From IMG/VR virus record IMGVR_UViG_3300028393_000063: a stretch of 20,000 bases of DNA, one strand, 5' to 3'. Positions 1 through 17,886 of this stretch are shown piece after piece; the stretch's first letter is position 1, and each line of letters starts with the position of its first letter. The notes beneath the pieces were generated by a model, which ran no database searches, was not told the origin of the DNA, and was given only the letters and a program-made list of their open reading frames with translations. A program made the translations under genes and the position numbers. Source of the DNA: an uncultured virus (IMG/VR IMGVR_UViG_3300028393_000063) (Duplodnaviria; Heunggongvirae; Uroviricota; Caudoviricetes).

Positions 1-1248
1 TGAATTATCTCCGGGAGATTGAGTTGTACCTACCGCAGCGCTTGCTACTGTGGTTGAGACTGTTGCGGCTGTTGTGGCATTTGTAGCGTTTGTAGCTAGT
101 GTTGCTGTTGCAGCATTGCCTGTTGTATTTTGATTTAATGTTGGGAACGTACAGTTAGCTAAGTTGCCGGAAGTTGGAGTTCCTAAAAGTGGAGTTACTA
201 GAGTAGGTGAAGTGCTTAAAACTACACTCCCCGAACCGGTAGAAGTAACCACACCTGTACCACCATTTGTTACAGCCAAAGTTCCAATAACTCCAGTAGT
301 TAAGGGCAAACCCGTACAGTTAGTTAAAACTCCAGAAGTAGGCGTTCCAAGAAGAGGTGTAACTAAAGCGGGTGCATTACTAAGAACATTATTTCCAGAA
401 CCTGTGGATGTAGTTACGCCTGTACCACCGTTGGTTACTGCTAAAGTGCCTGTAACTTGAGTCGCTAAATTAATATTACCTGATATTGAGCCAGACGGAT
501 ATCCAGTACAGTTAGCCAAGTTTCCAGATTGGGGTGTTCCAAGAAGAGGGGTTACTAAAGTAGGGGATGTACTTAATACGTTATTTCCTGTTCCTGTAGA
601 TGTAGTAACGCCTGAACCACCATTAACAACAGCAACTATACCAGTCACATTTAGCGAAGTACCACCAACACTTAACCCAGCGGCTGAACCAGTAATGCCT
701 GTACCCGGACCTGAAAATTGAGTACCAGCTGTTATTGTTGTACTACCAGCTATTGCGCCTGTGCTTGTAAGTGAAGTACAGTTAATAGCGCCTGTAGTGA
801 TAGTTCCACCAGTAACAAGATTCTGAGCATTCTGCACATAATTTAAAACACCCCATGATGCCCCTACTATTCCAGTACAGTACAAATACATAGTCTGTCC
901 GTTAGGGACTTGAGTTGTAGTACCGCCTGACATTTTTATATATGCAACTTGCGGGGAAGTTAAGCTGTTAGTAACCATGTAAAGTTTTGGAACAGCTGGC
1001 ACTATTACACTATATGTAGCATTTTGAGTACCTGTAACTATAATTACCGCACTTCTTGCTTCATCTAAAGCACCGTTTAAGTTTGTTAGGGTATAGTCGG
1101 CATTAGCCATTGTGATGGTAGTTTGTCCAACAATAGCCTGTTCAAGGAGAGTGCCAAAGTTTGCATTGGTGGTTTGACCCCAAGTACCTGTCTGGTCGCC
1201 ATCTCCTATGAGGGTTAATTTTAATGAGGTTGAATAGGTACTTGCCAT
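1..1248 (-). CDS. Tail fibre / tail appendage protein, 3'-truncated by the window edge (at least 416 aa)
   Basis: Not in the ORF track because it has no stop in the window. ATG at 1248 after AAGGA. Translates MASTYSTSLKLTLIGDGDQTGTWGQTTNANFGTLLEQAI..., an N-terminus typical of tail proteins in such phages, then Thr/Gly-rich repeats (LAVTNGGTGVTTSTGSG..VLS.SPTLVTPLLGTP.SG.L.NCT). Confidence 0.8.
   Translation of the reverse strand, partial: MASTYSTSLKLTLIGDGDQTGTWGQTTNANFGTLLEQAIVGQTTITMANADYTLTNLNGALDEARSAVIIVTGTQNATYSVIVPAVPKLYMVTNSLTSPQVAYIKMSGGTTTQVPNGQTMYLYCTGIVGASWGVLNYVQNAQNLVTGGTITTGAINCTSLTSTGAIAGSTTITAGTQFSGPGTGITGSAAGLSVGGTSLNVTGIVAVVNGGSGVTTSTGTGNNVLSTSPTLVTPLLGTPQSGNLANCTGYPSGSISGNINLATQVTGTLAVTNGGTGVTTSTGSGNNVLSNAPALVTPLLGTPTSGVLTNCTGLPLTTGVIGTLAVTNGGTGVVTSTGSGSVVLSTSPTLVTPLLGTPTSGNLANCTFPTLNQNTTGNAATATLATNATNATTAATVSTTVASAAVGTTQSPGDNS
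145..650 (-). repeat. Three imperfect ~50-aa fibre repeats
   Basis: NG codons of the AV.NGG motif at 619-624, 427-432 and 262-267 (spacings 192 and 165 nt); VTPLLGTP and NCT recur in all three. Confidence 0.85.
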
Positions 1249-1257
1249 AATTTATCC

Positions 1258-2256
1258 TTATTGACTATTGTTTATTTCTACCCAGCCTTGCGTTTGGCTG
1301 TTATTAATCTGTACCCAGTTAGCGTTTGTGTCAGGAATAATTGGGTCTGGTACATTACCTGAAACAACTGCGTATCCAGCAAATGATAATGAAGCAAACG
1401 GAGTTCCCCCAAAATTAGCTATGTCAGTAAACGTCTGTTGTTTATAACCCCAGTTAGCATCTTGATTATCATTAATTGTATACCAACCACGAGGAAATTG
1501 GGAATCTAAAAGTGATATGGCTTCGGTAATAGTTTGTAAGAAATTAGACTGCTGGGTGCTTGAGTCGGCTAAAGTGACCGCCTCGGTAATAGAGTTCTGA
1601 AATTGCGCAAGAATTGACTCTGTTTCTGCGGAAGTTACGTTCTCAGTAATAGCAAGCGCATATATTGCAATAATCTGAATAACATCAGCGGCTGTAGTGT
1701 TCTCGGTTACAACCGCATTAAACTGAGCAAGAATAGACTGAGCATTATCTAAGGTAGTACTCTCGGATACGCTTGCGGCAAACTGGGCTAAGATAGTAGG
1801 TGCGTCAGCTAAAGTGCTGTTTTCTACAATACTGGCTAAGTATTGAGCGGTAATTGACGGAGTATCCGCAAGGGTTGAGTTTTCGGTAATGCTTGTTACA
1901 AACTGAGAAATTATTGTCTGTACGGTATCAAGTACGGAATTTTCAGCCCTACTTACATTAAACTGCGCCAAGATAGACTGTGCATTGTCTATGGTAGTCG
2001 GCTCTGTAATGCTTGTTAAGAATGAAATACCACCAACAACAACGTCTGCTATATTTACGTTTTCTGTTTGAGAAGCAGCAAACTGCGCCAGAATAGACTG
2101 GGTATTGTCTGAGGTTATGTTGTCGGTAAAGCTGGCTAAGAACTGCGCAGTGATTGTTTGCGCATTGTCTACTGTTACATTTTCGGATAACGCTAGGTCA
2201 TAACCCACCCCTAATGCAGCAAATGGTGCCTGAGCAAAAGAGGTGAATCCAAACAT
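1258..2256 (-). CDS. Virion structural protein with 20-aa tandem repeats
   Basis: 332-aa ORF in the tail module; about 11-12 repeats of (I/V)TEN.T..D..SILAQF..S; N-terminal MFGFTSFAQAPFAAL; C-terminal W..IN.(N/S)Q motifs. Confidence 0.75.
   Translation of the reverse strand: MFGFTSFAQAPFAALGVGYDLALSENVTVDNAQTITAQFLASFTDNITSDNTQSILAQFAASQTENVNIADVVVGGISFLTSITEPTTIDNAQSILAQFNVSRAENSVLDTVQTIISQFVTSITENSTLADTPSITAQYLASIVENSTLADAPTILAQFAASVSESTTLDNAQSILAQFNAVVTENTTAADVIQIIAIYALAITENVTSAETESILAQFQNSITEAVTLADSSTQQSNFLQTITEAISLLDSQFPRGWYTINDNQDANWGYKQQTFTDIANFGGTPFASLSFAGYAVVSGNVPDPIIPDTNANWVQINNSQTQGWVEINNSQ
1520..2190 (-). repeat. 60-nt periodic coding repeat
   Basis: aactg at 2141, 2081, 1961, 1901, 1781 and 1721, with variants at 1841 and 1601: an exact 60-nt period. 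Confidence 0.9.
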
Positions 2257-2841: not shown

Positions 2842-5800
2842 TTAAGGATGGGTTGCTTTGTATGCGTCAAATTCTGCTTTTAACTGCTTTATTGCGTTTA
2901 TCATGTACCAAGTTAGGTTGTCCGAGTCTACAGACATAACACCGGTGCTTTCAGTCTTAATACACTCAGGCAATATCTGTTGAAGTTCTTGGGCAATAAC
3001 ACCAAGTTGAACGCCTTCTTTTTTAATTGCTTGACTTTGCGGTAAGTCGGTAACTTCTTCAGGTAAACGGTATTCAAAGTTACGCACTTGAATTTGTGTA
3101 ATCTTATCTAGACCTGTGTTGTTGTCTACAATGTTCTTTTTAAGTCTTGCGTCAGAAGTAATAGACCACGATAAAGAATTGTTACCTTGATATACGCCAC
3201 CAGCACCGGGATTAATAAATCCTGTGGTAGTACCTTTACCAGCGGAGTTATACCCAATAACGATTTCATTTGTTGGGCTTGCGCCTGACGGATAAGCATA
3301 TGAGCCAACATAAACATTGGAGTTGCCAGTTGTTAAATTTGAACCCCCTACTGGAGAACCATATCCAGAACTAGTACCAAAACACGAATTATTAGAACCG
3401 CTTGTAATAGCATAACCAGATTGATAACCAAAAAGGTTATTTCCAGCACCATCAAGGCTATAGCCAGCCTGATAACCTACTGCGGTGCTACTAGAGGCGG
3501 TGTTGTTATTGATAAGCGATTGCTGACCAAAAGCCGTATTGTACGAACCTGTAGTGTTGCTTAATAAAGAATAAAAACCAAAAGCGTTATTAGATACACC
3601 AGTTGTATTTGCAGTAAGTGCTTGAAAACCAAACGCATCTGAACCTCCAGTAGTGTTTGCTCTTAGTGCTTGATAACCTACGGCTGTAGAATTTCCGGCT
3701 GTGTTTGCGTACAGTGCTTGATAACCAACTGCTGTGTTGTTTGAGCCAGAAGCACCGCCATTTGCTACGCTTAATGCACCTGAACCTAATGCAGTATTGT
3801 AAGAACCTGTTGCTCTATATCCTGCATAACCACCTACATAAGTATTATCAATTCCTGCTGTATTAAAGTATCCTGCGCTTGCGCCAATATATACCTGACC
3901 TTGATTAGAGCCACCGCCAGTATATGAATATGCCGCTTGCGAACCTACTGCAACTAGAGTTGGCGCTACAGTACTGCTATACAAGGCTTGATAACCTACG
4001 GCTACAATATTAGAGGCGGTGGTGTTTGAACGCAAAGCGCCAGAGCCTAAAGCCACATTATAACTACCAGTTGTATTTAACTCTAATGTCCCACTTGAAA
4101 TACCGGGAACACTACCTCCAACTGCAACGTTTTGTGTACCTGTGGTATTTGAGGTTAAAGACATGGCACCAAATGCAGCATTGTAAGCGCCACTGGTGTT
4201 ACTGCTCAATGCTTCTGCTCCAAATGCTGCATTCCAGCGACCGACAGCGCCACTTGAGCCTTTTAGTGCATTTCCACCCATTGCTGTATTGCCATCACCT
4301 GCATTCCAGTATGTTGCTTGATAGCCCACTGCGGTGTTGTTATTACTGCTTACATTCTTGTCTAGTGCGCCCGACCCAATGGCAACATTGTTACTACCAG
4401 TGGTTGTGCTTTCTAAAGCATAATCACCGATTGCTATGTTGTAGTTAGCAGTAGTATTGCCTAGTGCTGCTCTGTAACCAATAGCAACTAAGTTTATACC
4501 TGTAGTGTTTGCATATCCTGCTTGATAACCTACGGCTGTGTTTTGAGAGGCGGTGGTGTTTGCTCTTAATGCTTCTACGCCTAATGCAGTATTGTAAGAA
4601 CCACTTGTGTTTTGTAATAGAGCCTGTTGTCCTATAGCAGTTAGATAAGAACCAGCACCTGTAGATGCTACTGCCGCATCTCCAACAATAGTGTTATATG
4701 AACCTGTATTTAAGTATCCAGAAAAAGAACCAGCAAATAAATTATTACTGCCAGTATTTGATTTTCCAGCAAAATAACCTATACCAGTTTGCCTATCTGT
4801 TGTAGTTGTTGTATATAAAGACTGATAACCTACTGCTGTGTTATTAGAGGCGGTGGTGTTGGAGCCTAATGCACCAGTACCAACTGCAATATTGTATGAA
4901 CCCGTACTGTTGCCACTCAGCGCAGAAACAGAATTAGCAACATACTCCCCCCCAACTGCTACGTTGGCAACACCCGTTGTGTTGCTATATAGGGCATTAC
5001 GTCCGAATGCGTGTAAAGCCGTTCCCGTGGTATTGCTATACCCTGCTTGATAGCCTACTGCTGTATTGTTAGAGGCGGTGGTGTTTTTCTCTAGCGCTGA
5101 CCTACCAAGGGCAGTATTAAAGGAGCCAGTGGTATTTTGTTGTAAAGCCCAGTAGCCTAAAGCCGCATTAGAGCCTCCACTACTATTTGTTGATAGCGCC
5201 CCAGAACCAACAGCAGTGTTAAAAGATGTTGTATTGCCGTAAAGTGTTTGATAACCTACTGCTACGTTGTCTGTGCCAGTAAGGTTTGAGTTCATGGCTG
5301 AGTAACCGAGAACTGTATTATATGCACCTGATGTGTTTTGATTTAAAGCATACCCACCAACAACAGTATTTGCATCCCCTGTAGTATTTGATGCTAAAGC
5401 CTCTCGACCAACTGCTACAGAACCTCCACCTGTAGTATTAGCCCTTAAAGCATTCATTCCAACTGCTGTTAGACTACCACCTGTACTGTTTGTGTATAAA
5501 GACTGATAGCCTACTGCTGTGTTGTTAGAGGCGGTGGTGTTTTGTGCTAATGCCGCAGTTCCTATAGCAGTATTGTAACTACCTGAACTATTGCTAAACA
5601 ACGCACCATATGTTCCAGCATCTTGTGAGCCAACAGCAGTATTGTAAGAGCCTGATGTAGTTAAATACATAGCGTAATTACCAAGAGCCAAGTTGTTATT
5701 TCCACTTGTAATACTTGCCAATCCACTAGCACCAACTACGGTGTTATTAGTAGCCCCAGCGTTTCCACGCCCCACTCTTACACCATAAACAGTTAAGTCA

Positions 5801-6195
5801 GTACCTGAGTATAAAAGGTTGGCTGAGTCTGTTAGTAGACCGTCCGTAGTAGCATAAGCAACACGACCACTTGTTAATGCGGCTGAACTTAAATTGACAG
5901 ACCGCTCACTAGGATAAGTTAGGAATACGTTCTGTGTACCAGTACTAAAGTTAGTTAAAGAGCCAGCATTAGATGAGGAGAGCACCGTGGTACGGGCTAA
6001 TGTTCCAGACGAGTAAGTACCAATACCTACTTCCCAATTAGCTCCATTCTGGTCAGCTATAGCGTAGTAACAAGTATTACCGTTGCCTACCGTGCTAAAT
6101 GCTTGGTAGCCTGTAACTGCGCCTAATAACGTAATCGTACCTGTACCGGGAGAAGTACAGGTCTCTAGTACTCTGTCCTTTAATACTAATGCCAT
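2842..6195 (-). CDS. Long tail fibre/spike: N-terminal anchor, beta-helical NTAVGYQAL..NTTG repeats, C-terminal intramolecular chaperone (peptidase S74-like)
   Basis: 1117 aa; AGGAG RBS; MALVLKDRV.ET... anchor; dozens of ~14-aa repeats; SDARLKKNI autocleavage motif (Ser codon 3154-3156) followed by GVIAQE and a terminal coiled coil. Confidence 0.9.
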   Translation of the reverse strand: MALVLKDRVLETCTSPGTGTITLLGAVTGYQAFSTVGNGNTCYYAIADQNGANWEVGIGTYSSGTLARTTVLSSSNAGSLTNFSTGTQNVFLTYPSERSVNLSSAALTSGRVAYATTDGLLTDSANLLYSGTDLTVYGVRVGRGNAGATNNTVVGASGLASITSGNNNLALGNYAMYLTTSGSYNTAVGSQDAGTYGALFSNSSGSYNTAIGTAALAQNTTASNNTAVGYQSLYTNSTGGSLTAVGMNALRANTTGGGSVAVGREALASNTTGDANTVVGGYALNQNTSGAYNTVLGYSAMNSNLTGTDNVAVGYQTLYGNTTSFNTAVGSGALSTNSSGGSNAALGYWALQQNTTGSFNTALGRSALEKNTTASNNTAVGYQAGYSNTTGTALHAFGRNALYSNTTGVANVAVGGEYVANSVSALSGNSTGSYNIAVGTGALGSNTTASNNTAVGYQSLYTTTTTDRQTGIGYFAGKSNTGSNNLFAGSFSGYLNTGSYNTIVGDAAVASTGAGSYLTAIGQQALLQNTSGSYNTALGVEALRANTTASQNTAVGYQAGYANTTGINLVAIGYRAALGNTTANYNIAIGDYALESTTTGSNNVAIGSGALDKNVSSNNNTAVGYQATYWNAGDGNTAMGGNALKGSSGAVGRWNAAFGAEALSSNTSGAYNAAFGAMSLTSNTTGTQNVAVGGSVPGISSGTLELNTTGSYNVALGSGALRSNTTASNIVAVGYQALYSSTVAPTLVAVGSQAAYSYTGGGSNQGQVYIGASAGYFNTAGIDNTYVGGYAGYRATGSYNTALGSGALSVANGGASGSNNTAVGYQALYANTAGNSTAVGYQALRANTTGGSDAFGFQALTANTTGVSNNAFGFYSLLSNTTGSYNTAFGQQSLINNNTASSSTAVGYQAGYSLDGAGNNLFGYQSGYAITSGSNNSCFGTSSGYGSPVGGSNLTTGNSNVYVGSYAYPSGASPTNEIVIGYNSAGKGTTTGFINPGAGGVYQGNNSLSWSITSDARLKKNIVDNNTGLDKITQIQVRNFEYRLPEEVTDLPQSQAIKKEGVQLGVIAQELQQILPECIKTESTGVMSVDSDNLTWYMINAIKQLKAEFDAYKATHP
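3493..5541 (+). repeat. Six dispersed copies of AGAGGCGGTGGTGTT inside the fibre gene
   Basis: Exact copies at 4012-4026, 4546-4560, 4846-4860, 5071-5085 and 5527-5541; a one-mismatch copy at 3493-3507. Confidence 0.95.
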
Positions 6196-6208: not shown

Positions 6209-6817
6209 TTACGAAGTTGCGGTTGTACTATAAGTTACAGATACTGTATCGCCAGCCGTTACTATTTTAGATGTAGTAAAGTTACCTTCGGAATAAAGCG
6301 TACCAGCTGTTGAGCTTTGCGTATTAACAGCACCTGTACCGGTTACCAAGAAGCATCCGTAAACTGTTCCGCCAGCGCCCGTGATTGTATAAGTAATTGA
6401 GGCTGCAGCAGAGGTTGTGACGTTACTTGGGGTTGTGCCTGTAGAAGTAGAAGCTGTAAACACCGCTGTGCCACGAACCGCTGAACTACTTACTGTGTAG
6501 TTAATGAACTCACCAGCATTTGTAGTCACTAAGGTAGTCATCGTATCTGTAGCTGCTGGAGTTAAAGACACTTTAGTTAAGCCTAGGAACGGTCCAACAA
6601 CAGTATAAGAAGAGCCTCTTAACAAGGTATCTAACATCAGCTGTTTACCTACAGCTACGACTAAGTTAGGAAACTCATCTTCCCACTTTAATTTGCCCTC
6701 GGCATCACGGCACACTACTTTATAAAAACCTTCTATACCCATTCCTTCGGGAATAGTTACGTTTGCTTGTAATGAGGCTACAGCGTTATCACCGCAGCTT
6801 GCTTTTTCGTTTGTCAT
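6209..6817 (-). CDS. Virion structural (tail) protein
   Basis: 202 aa, Thr/Gly-rich beta protein, W.....NLVV..G and GDT..VTY motifs; AGGAG RBS. Confidence 0.7.
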   Translation of the reverse strand: MTNEKASCGDNAVASLQANVTIPEGMGIEGFYKVVCRDAEGKLKWEDEFPNLVVAVGKQLMLDTLLRGSSYTVVGPFLGLTKVSLTPAATDTMTTLVTTNAGEFINYTVSSSAVRGTAVFTASTSTGTTPSNVTTSAAASITYTITGAGGTVYGCFLVTGTGAVNTQSSTAGTLYSEGNFTTSKIVTAGDTVSVTYSTTATS

Positions 6818-13364: not shown

Positions 13365-13784
13365 ATGACTACTATTCTTGGTGATTGGAAACAAAAAGTT
13401 TTAGTGGCAGATAGTCAATTTTCAGATACCGACACTGGCATTAAATACTTTGAAGATAAGGTCTTTGCAATAGATGGTGGGTGGGTTGGCGTTGCGGGTA
13501 ATTACGTAGACGCAGAAAAAGTTATAGAGTTTTTAAATAAAAAAAGTAAAGTAAAACCAAAATTAAAATCAGATAGCTCTTTCTTAAAACTTACAAACGA
13601 AGGTTTATTTGCTTGTGGGGATGACCTTGAGTGGGAAAGAGTTAGAACTTTTATGGCTATTGGCAGTGGGGCAATGGCGGCAGAGGTATGTATGCGCATG
13701 GGTCTAACACCTGAAGACTCTGTAAAGTGGGCTTGTAATGTGGATTTAATGAGCCACGAGCCTGTTAAAACTTACCCCCTGTAA
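13365..13784 (+). CDS. Minimal HslV/proteasome-beta-like Ntn hydrolase
   Basis: M-T-T-I start (Thr1), ADS (Asp), DKVF (Lys), GVAG and AIGSG motifs in HslV order; only 139 aa. Confidence 0.75.
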   Translation: MTTILGDWKQKVLVADSQFSDTDTGIKYFEDKVFAIDGGWVGVAGNYVDAEKVIEFLNKKSKVKPKLKSDSSFLKLTNEGLFACGDDLEWERVRTFMAIGSGAMAAEVCMRMGLTPEDSVKWACNVDLMSHEPVKTYPL

Positions 13785-13786
13785 AA

Positions 13787-14149
13787 ATGCCATATAAAGA
13801 CCCTGCAGTTAGAAAGTTAAAACATGCGGAGTATTCAAAAAAACATTACGAAGAAAATAAAGTATCAGAAAAAATAAGATTAGCCAAAACAAAAAAAGAA
13901 AAAAGAGCCGAATGGGCTGCTTTTAAAGCCACTCTTAGGTGTGAAAGATGTGGAGAAGACCACCCAGCAACTTTTGACTTTCACCATGTAAATCCCAAAG
14001 AAAAAGAAGGTGACCTTAGTTCATTAATAACCGGCGGTCAATTTTCTAAAGCGTACAAAGAATTAAAAAAATGTATTGTGCTGTGCTCAAACTGCCATCG
14101 TATACATCACTACGAAGAAAATTTAAAATTAAAAAACCCCGCCTTGTGA
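13787..14149 (+). CDS. HNH endonuclease
   Basis: CERC...FDFHH...KCIVLCSNCHRIHH Zn-HNH signature after a basic N-terminal helix. Confidence 0.9.
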   Translation: MPYKDPAVRKLKHAEYSKKHYEENKVSEKIRLAKTKKEKRAEWAAFKATLRCERCGEDHPATFDFHHVNPKEKEGDLSSLITGGQFSKAYKELKKCIVLCSNCHRIHHYEENLKLKNPAL

Positions 14150-17300: not shown

Positions 17301-17702
17301 TTATGCTCGTGTAATCCCACGGGGGTCTTGAACAACAGCTTCTACGCTATCGTCATTTATGATTCTGAACTCTTGACCATGAATCTTTACTCGTGAACCT
17401 GAGTTTGGTCTAATAAGAACAAAATCTCCTACTTTACACAGTGGTCCGCTTGGAAAACGCTCTTTATCTGCATAAGCGTCAGGTCCTAAATCCATCACAA
17501 ACAACACCGGAGTTAATACTTCCTCGTAGTGCATAGTCTGGTCTGACTTTAAAATACCCCCTTCAAACTCTTCGTCAGCTGCTGGAACCATACATAAAAT
17601 ATGGTAGCCTGCTGGCTTTGGAAGCTGTGTTGCCTTTTGCTCTGCTTTCGCAGGGATTTGTGATATGTTACCTACTGCATCACTTATTAATAAATCACTC
17701 AT
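17301..17702 (-). CDS. groES: Co-chaperonin GroES-like (Cpn10)
   Basis: P.GY.IL, GGIL mobile loop, V..LGPDAY, CKVGD.V, G....I.G.E.RIINDD.V.AVV; likely start is the third ATG after AAGGA. Confidence 0.88.
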   Translation of the reverse strand: MSDLLISDAVGNISQIPAKAEQKATQLPKPAGYHILCMVPAADEEFEGGILKSDQTMHYEEVLTPVLFVMDLGPDAYADKERFPSGPLCKVGDFVLIRPNSGSRVKIHGQEFRIINDDSVEAVVQDPRGITRA

Positions 17703-17886
17703 CATCATCCTTATTTAGTTTCTGCTCACGGTCTTTGATTAACTCAATAGCAAGGGCAAGACCACGGATAACCCCAACTACATGCTTATACTCTTCAAAA
17801 TCTTTGCAATTGCCTGCGGCAATAAATTCTGATTTTCCATCAATCTGCTTCTGTAATTCCTTACAGAGATAGTCATACTCGTTCAT
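17695..17886 (-). CDS. Small helical hypothetical protein after the portal
   Basis: 63 aa; G...DFEEYK...G.IRGL; overlaps both neighbours. Confidence 0.8.
   Translation of the reverse strand: MNEYDYLCKELQKQIDGKSEFIAAGNCKDFEEYKHVVGVIRGLALAIELIKDREQKLNKDDDE

What the first reader, a model, noticed from the sequence alone, without database searches (positions are those of the whole stretch)
3493..5541. Synonymously invariant 15-nt anchors in the tail fibre: candidate recombinational shuffling system
Seen: NTTAS is always encoded AAC ACC ACC GCC TCT (five exact copies, one with a single change). The C-ending codons stand out in a gene rich in A/T third positions, and other NTT tripeptides in the same gene use varied codons (e.g. 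AAT ACT ACA, AAC ACA ACG). Identity extends into the NTAVGYQ codons: 4814-4860 and 5495-5541 match at 45 of 47 nt. Spacings (519, 534, 300, 225, 456) are all multiples of 3 but irregular, and the sequence between anchors is highly diverged, which simple tandem duplication does not explain. Inference: these are in-frame crossover sites that let beta-helix cassettes be swapped, added or deleted within or between phages, diversifying fibre length and receptor range without an invertase or DGR.
Basis: partly seen in the sequence, partly recalled or inferred. Interest (0 to 1): 0.85.

Follow-up and report, generated by a model that had tools for sequence, protein, structure and literature searches.

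The report
Shared swap points in phage fibres
Many unrelated lake and sea phages carry the same short DNA unit several times inside their tail-fibre gene, and their fibre genes have visibly traded whole blocks at exactly those units, like a shared plug-and-socket system for rebuilding the fibre.

Summary
The six repeats lie in a 1117-aa S74 beta-solenoid fibre of an HTVC023P-like freshwater phage. The exact 15-mer is lineage-specific (14 of 359 NTTAS in homologues). The family-wide element is a core, AACACCAC[C/A/T]GC, heading a 38-55-nt in-frame unit (NTTASNNTAVGYQ). In protein-selected genes, 321 of 365 such units carry AACACCAC.

Among 279 fibre genes, long shared tracts end at these units: 17 of 38 ends in newly fetched pairs against 4.9 expected, while motif-less NTTA show no excess. 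Whole anchor-to-anchor cassettes are shared at 92-98% between otherwise different genes, and the window's own 5' block ends at anchor 1. No known recombinase, annealing protein or reverse transcriptase was found in 5 near-complete carriers, so host recombination is inferred.

The core's reverse complement here is GCGGTGGT, the Caulobacter AddAB chi, and the homology lies on the side Chi polarity predicts. Host-genome statistics did not support Chi (partial signature in 1 of 4 genomes). Receptor-range effects are untested. Closest known: T-even adhesin shuffling at conserved motifs. The scan noted this fibre family before on other DNA, but not the anchors.

The parts
2842..6195 (-). Tail-fibre gene, 1117 aa: N-terminal attachment region, shaft of 17-residue beta-solenoid repeats, C-terminal S74 chaperone
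   Evidence: ORF; repeat parse; PF13884 E 3.7e-12; model of aa 140-480 with one strand every 17 residues, pLDDT 80, pTM 0.85
5504..5541 (-). Adapter unit 1 (core AACACCACCGC at 5531-5541, then NNTAVGYQ codons)
   Evidence: end point of the tract shared with L126 and L024
5048..5085 (-). Adapter unit 2
4823..4860 (-). Adapter unit 3
   Evidence: 13 contigs of run X7 stop matching at 4860, and one X6 contig is 100% identical from 4861 to 4463 after 336 foreign nt
4523..4560 (-). Adapter unit 4
3989..4026 (-). Adapter unit 5
3470..3507 (-). Adapter unit 6, core degenerate (NNTAS; the ACCACCGC octamer is lost)
5501..5838 (-). First block of repeats, shared at 92.5-93.8% with two other phages (L126/G082, L024/G081) and ending at +38 of unit 1
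4027..5503 (-). Four inter-unit cassettes (anchor spacings 456, 225, 300, 534 nt); no close relative other than the same virus in IMG/VR
   Evidence: the 456-nt cassette had no scan of its own
3508..3988 (-). Fifth cassette (anchor spacing 519 nt)
2962..3156 (-). Peptidase S74 intramolecular chaperone domain (aa 1014-1078)
6209..6817 (-). Conserved upstream neighbour gene, used to sample the orthologous locus without codon bias

Best explanation
The repeats are the 5' cores of a recurring 38-55-nt in-frame adapter unit that acts as a polar homologous-recombination hot spot in phage fibre genes. SHOWN: (1) the unit is shared at nucleotide level by fibre genes of unrelated phages; (2) shared tracts begin and end at it; (3) units are in frame and mostly a whole number of 17-residue coils apart, so swaps keep the solenoid in register. 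INFERRED: (4) during co-infection, host RecA-dependent recombination pairs any unit with any other unit, swapping blocks of about 200-500 nt between fibre genes that are otherwise only 40-55% alike in protein; (5) the core is held by sequence-specific selection because exchange starts there. My preferred candidate for step 5 is a Chi-type signal read on the antisense strand (GC[G/T/A]GTGGTG) by host AddAB-type resection, which would leave a 3' tail whose homology runs downstream in the gene; (6) repeated exchange re-homogenises the units. Odds: crossover role about 0.85; sequence-specified initiation at the core about 0.55; the recogniser being AddAB/Chi about 0.3.
For: Codon constraint: first Thr is ACC in 301 of 359 NTTAS against 72 of 260 NTTGS in 74 protein-selected genes; 38 of 50 against 20 of 129 in 18 genes selected by the neighbour gene; ACC at T1 in 463 of 519 units while T7 of the same unit is spread. 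Polarity: within-gene synonymous excess is about 0 upstream, 0.64-0.69 at the three core codons and 0.23-0.30 at codons +7 to +10. Breakpoints: 32 of 70 tract ends lie within -15..+60 of NTTA in both genes against 8.7 expected; 17 of 38 against 4.9 in pairs with newly fetched genes (p 1e-5). Near motif-bearing NTTA 38 of 54 against 18.3, near motif-less NTTA 5 against 3.8, near NTTG 12 against 23.6. L533/L535 are 99.9% identical over 1288 nt from base -1 of an anchor. The base at +8 agrees within genes in 0.82 of pairs against 0.47-0.61 for other wobbles, and differs even on a shared cassette (L158/L180). The motif is confined to the fibre in 10 phage records. No Tyr/Ser recombinase, RT, Erf, RecT, Rad52 or AAA_24 in 5 records. 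GCGGTGGT is the Caulobacter putative chi (PMC5443536). Two Roseobacter isolates carry it in their fibres.
Against: The host is unknown. GCGGTGGT is neither enriched nor polarised in 400 kb of two AddB-positive genomes (22/18 and 12/12 leading/lagging), and only modestly so in a third (47/32). It is polarised (48 of 64) but rare in a Polynucleobacter-genus genome. GCTGTGGT, the type of 31 of 74 genes, shows no Chi-like abundance in 61 Burkholderiales genomes. The motif is not spread over the phage genomes as protective Chi sites are. Two-fold sites downstream (N+5, Y+11) are as conserved as the core, and TAT in GYQ is common everywhere. ACC at T2 in NTTG is confounded by CCGG avoidance. Upstream DNA has no homology, so one-sided crossovers are not independent proof of polarity. 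Tract ends are not fully independent, and all pairs but one come from metagenome assemblies. No recombination was observed directly.
Confidence: 0.58

Rival explanations
1. Passive self-reinforcing linker. One ancestral 17-aa repeat spread by copying and now provides the only shared 40-55-nt homology between fibre genes. RecA or an unrecognised phage annealing protein uses it, nothing reads the core, and the likeness to chi is coincidence.
For: Change points are spread from about -11 to +70. N+5, N+6 and Y+11 wobbles are also conserved. Host-genome tests gave no clear Chi signature. The +8 base varies among C, A and T.
Against: Four-fold sites in the core are about 2.5 times more homogenised than four-fold sites 15-25 nt downstream. 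T1 is ACC in 89% across genes of very different GC3 while T7 is free. The +8 base tracks the gene rather than the cassette. 6 of 11 xTTA units that lost the Asn keep the octamer (small n).
Confidence: 0.27
2. Common ancestry plus assembly chimeras: assemblers join different phages at the repeated unit, creating false mosaics.
For: Nearly all genes are from metagenome assemblies. Units are up to 97% identical. The perfect X6 junction has depth 3.7.
Against: Many cassettes are bounded by units at both ends with 92-98% interiors. The isolate CRP-1 shares a 291-nt 95% tract with L176 that ends at +12 of an anchor in both. The window's junctions recur at 100% in other records, which may come from the same sampling. 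Chimeras do not explain the codon constraint.
Confidence: 0.08
3. Site-specific recombination at the unit (shufflon/invertase-like, or an attC-like folded single strand).
For: 12 of 19 aligned 5' tract ends fall at -5..0. ACA-type units can form a weak hairpin.
Against: No PF00589 or PF00239 match in 5 records. All sites are direct and their type varies. The sense strand folds no better than synonymous recodings (-0.06 kcal/mol), and ACC-type cores pair with the downstream codon in only 37 of 295 units. Switch points are spread.
Confidence: 0.05
4. Protein or codon-usage constraint only; no recombination role.
For: 432 of 655 canonical NTAVGYQ repeats follow NTTA, which could reflect structure.
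Against: The constraint is synonymous. Low-GC3 homologues, HTVC111P and Venkman use NTTA without the motif or the GYQ unit. Breakpoints follow the motif, not the peptide.
Confidence: 0.02

Closest known systems
Recombinational shuffling of T-even adhesins (gp37/gp38) at conserved motifs (Tetart et al. 1996, 1998, as cited in PMC3157838; passages read)
   Same: Exchanges fall in or near conserved motifs that separate variable segments of a tail adhesin; no dedicated recombinase.
   Different: There the motifs are position-specific glycine-rich protein elements in one small adhesin of one phage group. Here one nucleotide-level unit recurs up to 13 times per gene, joins non-collinear blocks, is under synonymous constraint, and is shared by phages with different terminases and replication modules.
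Chi sites of RecBCD/AddAB; Caulobacter putative chi GCGGTGGT (PMC5443536, passages); Chi-rich recombinase-less phages (PMC3784561 and PMC12315714, passages)
   Same: Identical octamer in the window and in two Roseobacter phages; single orientation; carriers lack known recombinases; homology lies 5' of the octamer on its strand.
   Different: Sites are packed in frame into one structural gene rather than spread for genome protection. Variants GCTGTGGT and GCAGTGGT are not among the Chi motifs in the passages read. Host enrichment was not shown.
Invertase shufflons (Mu Gin, P1 Cin, R64 Rci) and diversity-generating retroelements (recalled, not read)
   Same: Diversify tail fibres or adhesins by rearranging DNA at defined places.
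   Different: No inverted sites, no recombinase, no RT or template repeat found; the partners are other phages.
Lambdoid linker or boundary sequences between genome modules (recalled; one search listed one paper, not read)
   Same: Short shared sequences that let otherwise unrelated modules recombine.
   Different: Here they lie inside one gene, in frame, repeated and in register with a solenoid repeat.
17-residue-repeat S74 fibres: Roseobacter phages CRP-7 and CRP-1, Venkman gp55, HTVC111P gp52, P-SSM2
   Same: Same repeat and mostly the same chaperone, 33-39% identity.
   Different: CRP-7 (2 of 3 NTTA) and CRP-1 (3 of 4) carry the core; Venkman (0 of 1) and HTVC111P (0 of 3) do not.

Membership tests
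Chi site (AddAB/RecBCD) | Matches a described Chi sequence | tested here: met
   Reverse complement of the window's core is GCGGTGGT; met for the C type only, not for the A and T types
Chi site (AddAB/RecBCD) | Over-represented and leading-strand polarised in the host chromosome | tested here: inconclusive
   Host unknown. Not met in G222 and G232, partial in G132, polarised but rare in G066. GCTGTGGT not abundant in 61 Burkholderiales
Chi site (AddAB/RecBCD) | One-sided action: exchange on the 5' side of the Chi strand | tested here: inconclusive
   Homology and change points lie on that side, but upstream lacks homology anyway
Chi site (AddAB/RecBCD) | Orientation-dependent, AddAB- and RecA-dependent stimulation | not testable with these tools
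   Needs genetics
Invertase shufflon / site-specific system | Tyrosine or serine recombinase in the element | tested here: not met
   0 of 5 near-complete carriers; the window's own full genome is not held
Invertase shufflon / site-specific system | Inverted sites and a fixed crossover base | tested here: not met
   All six sites are direct; change points are spread
Diversity-generating retroelement | Reverse transcriptase gene | tested here: not met
   PF00078 in 0 of 5
Integron attC-like folded site | Conserved hairpin with covariation | tested here: not met
T-even-type adhesin shuffling at conserved motifs | Exchanges concentrated at conserved motifs between variable segments | tested here: met
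T-even-type adhesin shuffling at conserved motifs | Swapped segments change receptor specificity | not testable with these tools
   No host-range data
S74-chaperone tail fibre/spike | C-terminal Peptidase_S74 domain | tested here: met
   46.8 bits against cut-off 22

The most novel reading that the evidence does not exclude
Aquatic phages without recombinases have written their host's Chi-type resection signal, in frame and in one orientation, into the start of a universal adapter repeat. This aims the host AddAB-RecA machinery at the fibre gene and creates a community-wide cassette library shared across unrelated phage lineages. The lineage-specific +8 base would then read out the undescribed Chi variants of their hosts.
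Probability: 0.3. Interest if true: 0.92.

Novelty: new variant of a known kind. Interest (0 to 1): 0.78.

Why it matters
How unrelated phage genes become mosaic is a long-standing question, argued between random illegitimate joins and shared linker sequences. Here a linker is defined to the nucleotide. It is present in 105 of 205 protein-selected fibre genes, its use is statistically demonstrable, and there is a natural motif-less control class. Two cultured Roseobacter phages carry it, so the question can be tested at the bench. If the core is a Chi-type signal, it would be host end-processing targeted to a single phage gene for diversification, and a way to discover Chi sequences of uncultured hosts.

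Tried and rejected
Hairpin/attC model: rejected. Genome-wide Chi enrichment in the phages: not seen in flanks of 74 loci or in 10 whole records. Host Chi signature: 61 Burkholderiales and 201 Pseudomonadota counts were uninformative, because the reversed-word control is itself a common word. Markov and skew tests on 400 kb of each of four genomes recovered GGGCAGGG (KOPS, label recalled) in the three AddB-positive genomes but gave no clear Chi result. Cassette-specific scans found only the same virus or distant relatives, so no close mosaic partner for the window's inner cassettes. Laid contigs gave no clean anchor-to-anchor deletion of this virus; listed joints have short sides and probably come from other phages. 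Motif-poor pairs showed no breakpoint excess (2 of 12 against 2.0), but n is small. No match in plasmids. No solved relative by sequence or by Foldseek at E<=0.001; the wider fold search was not obtained. The GroES-like gene gave no host clue. The Paracoccus paper passage gave no support. Chromosomal Bacteroidota-type homologues mostly lack the core. The -15..+60 window was chosen, so one search is post hoc; the new-gene subset is the replication.

Full report
1. Observation. The 15-mer occurs five times exactly and once with one mismatch, all on the minus strand and in frame in ORF 2842-6195. Spacings and the 45-of-47 match are as reported. With the gene's own codon usage the chance of five identical NTTAS encodings is 3.6e-9. 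The similarity is larger than 15 nt: the 38 nt from the anchor to TATCA match at 30-37 positions in all 15 pairs, against 9-18 of 30 just upstream.

2. Context. The protein has a C-terminal Peptidase_S74 domain and a shaft of 17-residue repeats. A model of residues 140-480 is a beta-solenoid with one strand per 17 residues (pLDDT 80, pTM 0.85); no solved relative was found. The capsid is closest to HTVC023P/CRP-901-type phages, 54-69%. The best-holding runs are freshwater metagenomes. The host is unknown and the whole genome is not held.

3. The motif across homologues. To avoid selecting on the motif I used loci chosen by protein. In 74 deduplicated genes (of 78), 359 NTTAS have AAC 320 times and first-Thr ACC 301 times, against 136 and 72 of 260 NTTGS; only 14 are the exact 15-mer. 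Loci chosen by the upstream neighbour gene (26 of 158 loci had a repeat gene, 18 after deduplication) gave ACC in 38 of 50 NTTA against 20 of 129 NTTG. The first Thr is the clean comparison, because ACC at the second Thr of NTTG would create CCGG (inference). In 205 protein-selected genes, 321 of 365 NTTA..NTAVGYQ units start with AACACCAC, against 188 of 634 other NTTA. The base at +8 is gene-typical: 32 C-type, 31 A-type, 3 T-type, 2 mixed and 6 without, of 74. It agrees within genes in 0.82 of pairs against 0.45 between genes; other wobbles give 0.47-0.61 against 0.31-0.43. Of 279 genes, 160 are motif-rich, 37 motif-poor (median GC3 0.16), 15 intermediate and 67 have fewer than two NTTA. 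Motif-poor genes also lack the GYQ unit after NTTA (8 of 249). Among isolates, Roseobacter phages CRP-7 and CRP-1 carry the core; HTVC111P and Venkman do not.

4. Do breakpoints map to the units? All-against-all blastn of 157 genes showed long shared tracts ending at units. With a -15..+60 window chosen on that output, 16 of 42 ends were near anchors in both genes against 3.6 expected (post hoc). After adding 122 new genes, pairs with a new gene gave 17 of 38 against 4.9 (p 1e-5); all motif-rich pairs gave 32 of 70 against 8.7; motif-poor and intermediate pairs gave 2 of 12 against 2.0. Within motif-rich pairs (tracts of at least 150 nt and 90%), 38 of 54 ends were near motif NTTA (18.3 expected), 5 near motif-less NTTA (3.8) and 12 near NTTG (23.6); inside the anchored span the figure was 37 of 42. 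Ends at sequence termini or outside the repeat region were dropped before counting, and related pairs may share events. Examples: unit-to-unit cassettes in L014/L020, L158/L180 and L174/L449; L533/L535 at 99.9% over 1288 nt from base -1 of an anchor. The window's first block is shared at 93.8% with L126 and ends at +38 of unit 1, although L126's genome (G082) has a different terminase and replication module from the closest near-complete relative, G080. The isolate CRP-1 shares a 291-nt tract ending at +12 of an anchor. Contigs from four runs pile up on the units, and 13 contigs of X7 stop at 4860, the anchor's upstream edge; other near-relative tracts end at 4507 and 4057, not at an anchor edge. 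Of 519 spacings, 214 are exact multiples of 51 nt and 99 are 3 nt short of one.

5. Mechanism. Change points are spread: medians -11 to +24 in 13 of 14 shared-upstream pairs (one at +54) and -5 to +71 in 16 shared-downstream pairs. This fits repeated homologous exchanges in a unit of about 60 nt, not one fixed crossover base. No integrase, resolvase, RT, Erf, RecT, Rad52 or AAA_24 match was found in 5 near-complete carriers; 67 scanned ORFs of three of them gave exonucleases and junction resolvases but no named annealing protein, and several ORFs remain unassigned. Host RecA is therefore inferred. The core looks special: within-gene synonymous excess is near 0 upstream, 0.64-0.69 on the three core codons and 0.23-0.30 at codons +7 to +10, though N+5 and Y+11 are also high. 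Its reverse complement in the window is GCGGTGGT, the predicted Caulobacter chi, arrays of which slow AddAB in vivo in one orientation; those authors state they did not show that recombination occurs there (PMC5443536, passages). Phages lacking recombinases over-represent Chi (PMC3784561, passages). RecBCD enters from Chi's 3' side and loads RecA on the new 3' end (PMC12315714, passages), so the homology needed would lie downstream in the gene, as seen. Against Chi: no enrichment or polarity in two AddB-positive genomes, a modest signature in a third, polarity without abundance in a Polynucleobacter-genus genome that has an AddA-like gene, no abundance of GCTGTGGT in 61 Burkholderiales, and confinement to the fibre. 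PMC8022716 (part 2 of 4 read) lists five proteobacterial Chi motifs, none of them these; in that part it tested near-variants of the E. coli word, and its supplementary octamer lists, which I did not see, may bear on this. I put Chi at 0.3, any sequence-specified initiation at 0.55 and a passive linker at 0.27.

6. Comparison and novelty. It works like T-even adhesin shuffling at conserved motifs (PMC3157838, passages) and like the recalled linker idea for lambdoid mosaics. It is not a shufflon, DGR or attC system on the features tested. Ten paper searches listed nothing describing this unit; 'NTTAS' with 'tail fiber' gave 0 papers. Subscription journals are not covered, and Tetart 1996/1998 were seen only as citations. 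PMC2013936 and PMC3925955 were seen as passages and gave no support. Earlier scan notes describe the same fibre family but not the anchors.

7. Verdict. A real, widespread and testable cassette-exchange signal in aquatic phage fibres. The exchange role is well supported, the initiating factor is open, and the effect on host range is untested. New variant of a known kind; interest 0.78.

Noticed in passing
window 13787-14149 (+): HNH-like 120-aa ORF (PF01844, just under cut-off) and a 139-aa ORF at 13365-13784, both against the direction of the structural operon, just downstream of the capsid gene.
   Followed up: no
window 1258-2256 (-): 332-aa ORF with its own 20-aa (60-nt) repeats (families D10, D14); ACC is 14 of 40 Thr codons.
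   Followed up: no
window 1-1248 (-): Second fibre-like ORF with three 138-156-nt repeats (D4), no Pfam match.
   Followed up: no
window 17301-17708 (-): GroES-like gene beside the portal; no match in 11 sampled Pseudomonadota genomes.
   Followed up: partly
L226-L383 (neighbour-gene loci): Only 26 of 158 loci with the conserved upstream gene carry this repeat fibre within the fetched DNA, so the slot may often hold other fibre types; many loci are short.
   Followed up: no
L204 (CRP-7) fibre nt 1768-1866; L582 (CRP-1) fibre nt 1306-1407: A second widely shared tract of about 95 nt at the end of the repeat shaft (GGLDIRTSSNNIVLSDGDGN region), 85-96% identical in many genes; a possible separate joint for swapping C-terminal tips.
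   Followed up: no
L130, L167, L198, L484, L560: T-type lineage (ACCACTGC) in low-GC3 genes with up to 13 anchors per gene and extensive mutual cassette sharing.
   Followed up: partly
G132:C1 1-400000: CGCGGTGG/GCGGTGG/GTGGTG words are among the most strand-skewed after GGGCAGGG; a candidate Chi family in this AddB-positive genome.
   Followed up: partly
L219, L213, L207, L210: Phage-like contigs with motif-bearing fibres binned into bacterial MAGs (Polynucleobacter, a betaproteobacterium, a gammaproteobacterium, Ca. Endobugula); weak host leads or mis-binning.
   Followed up: partly
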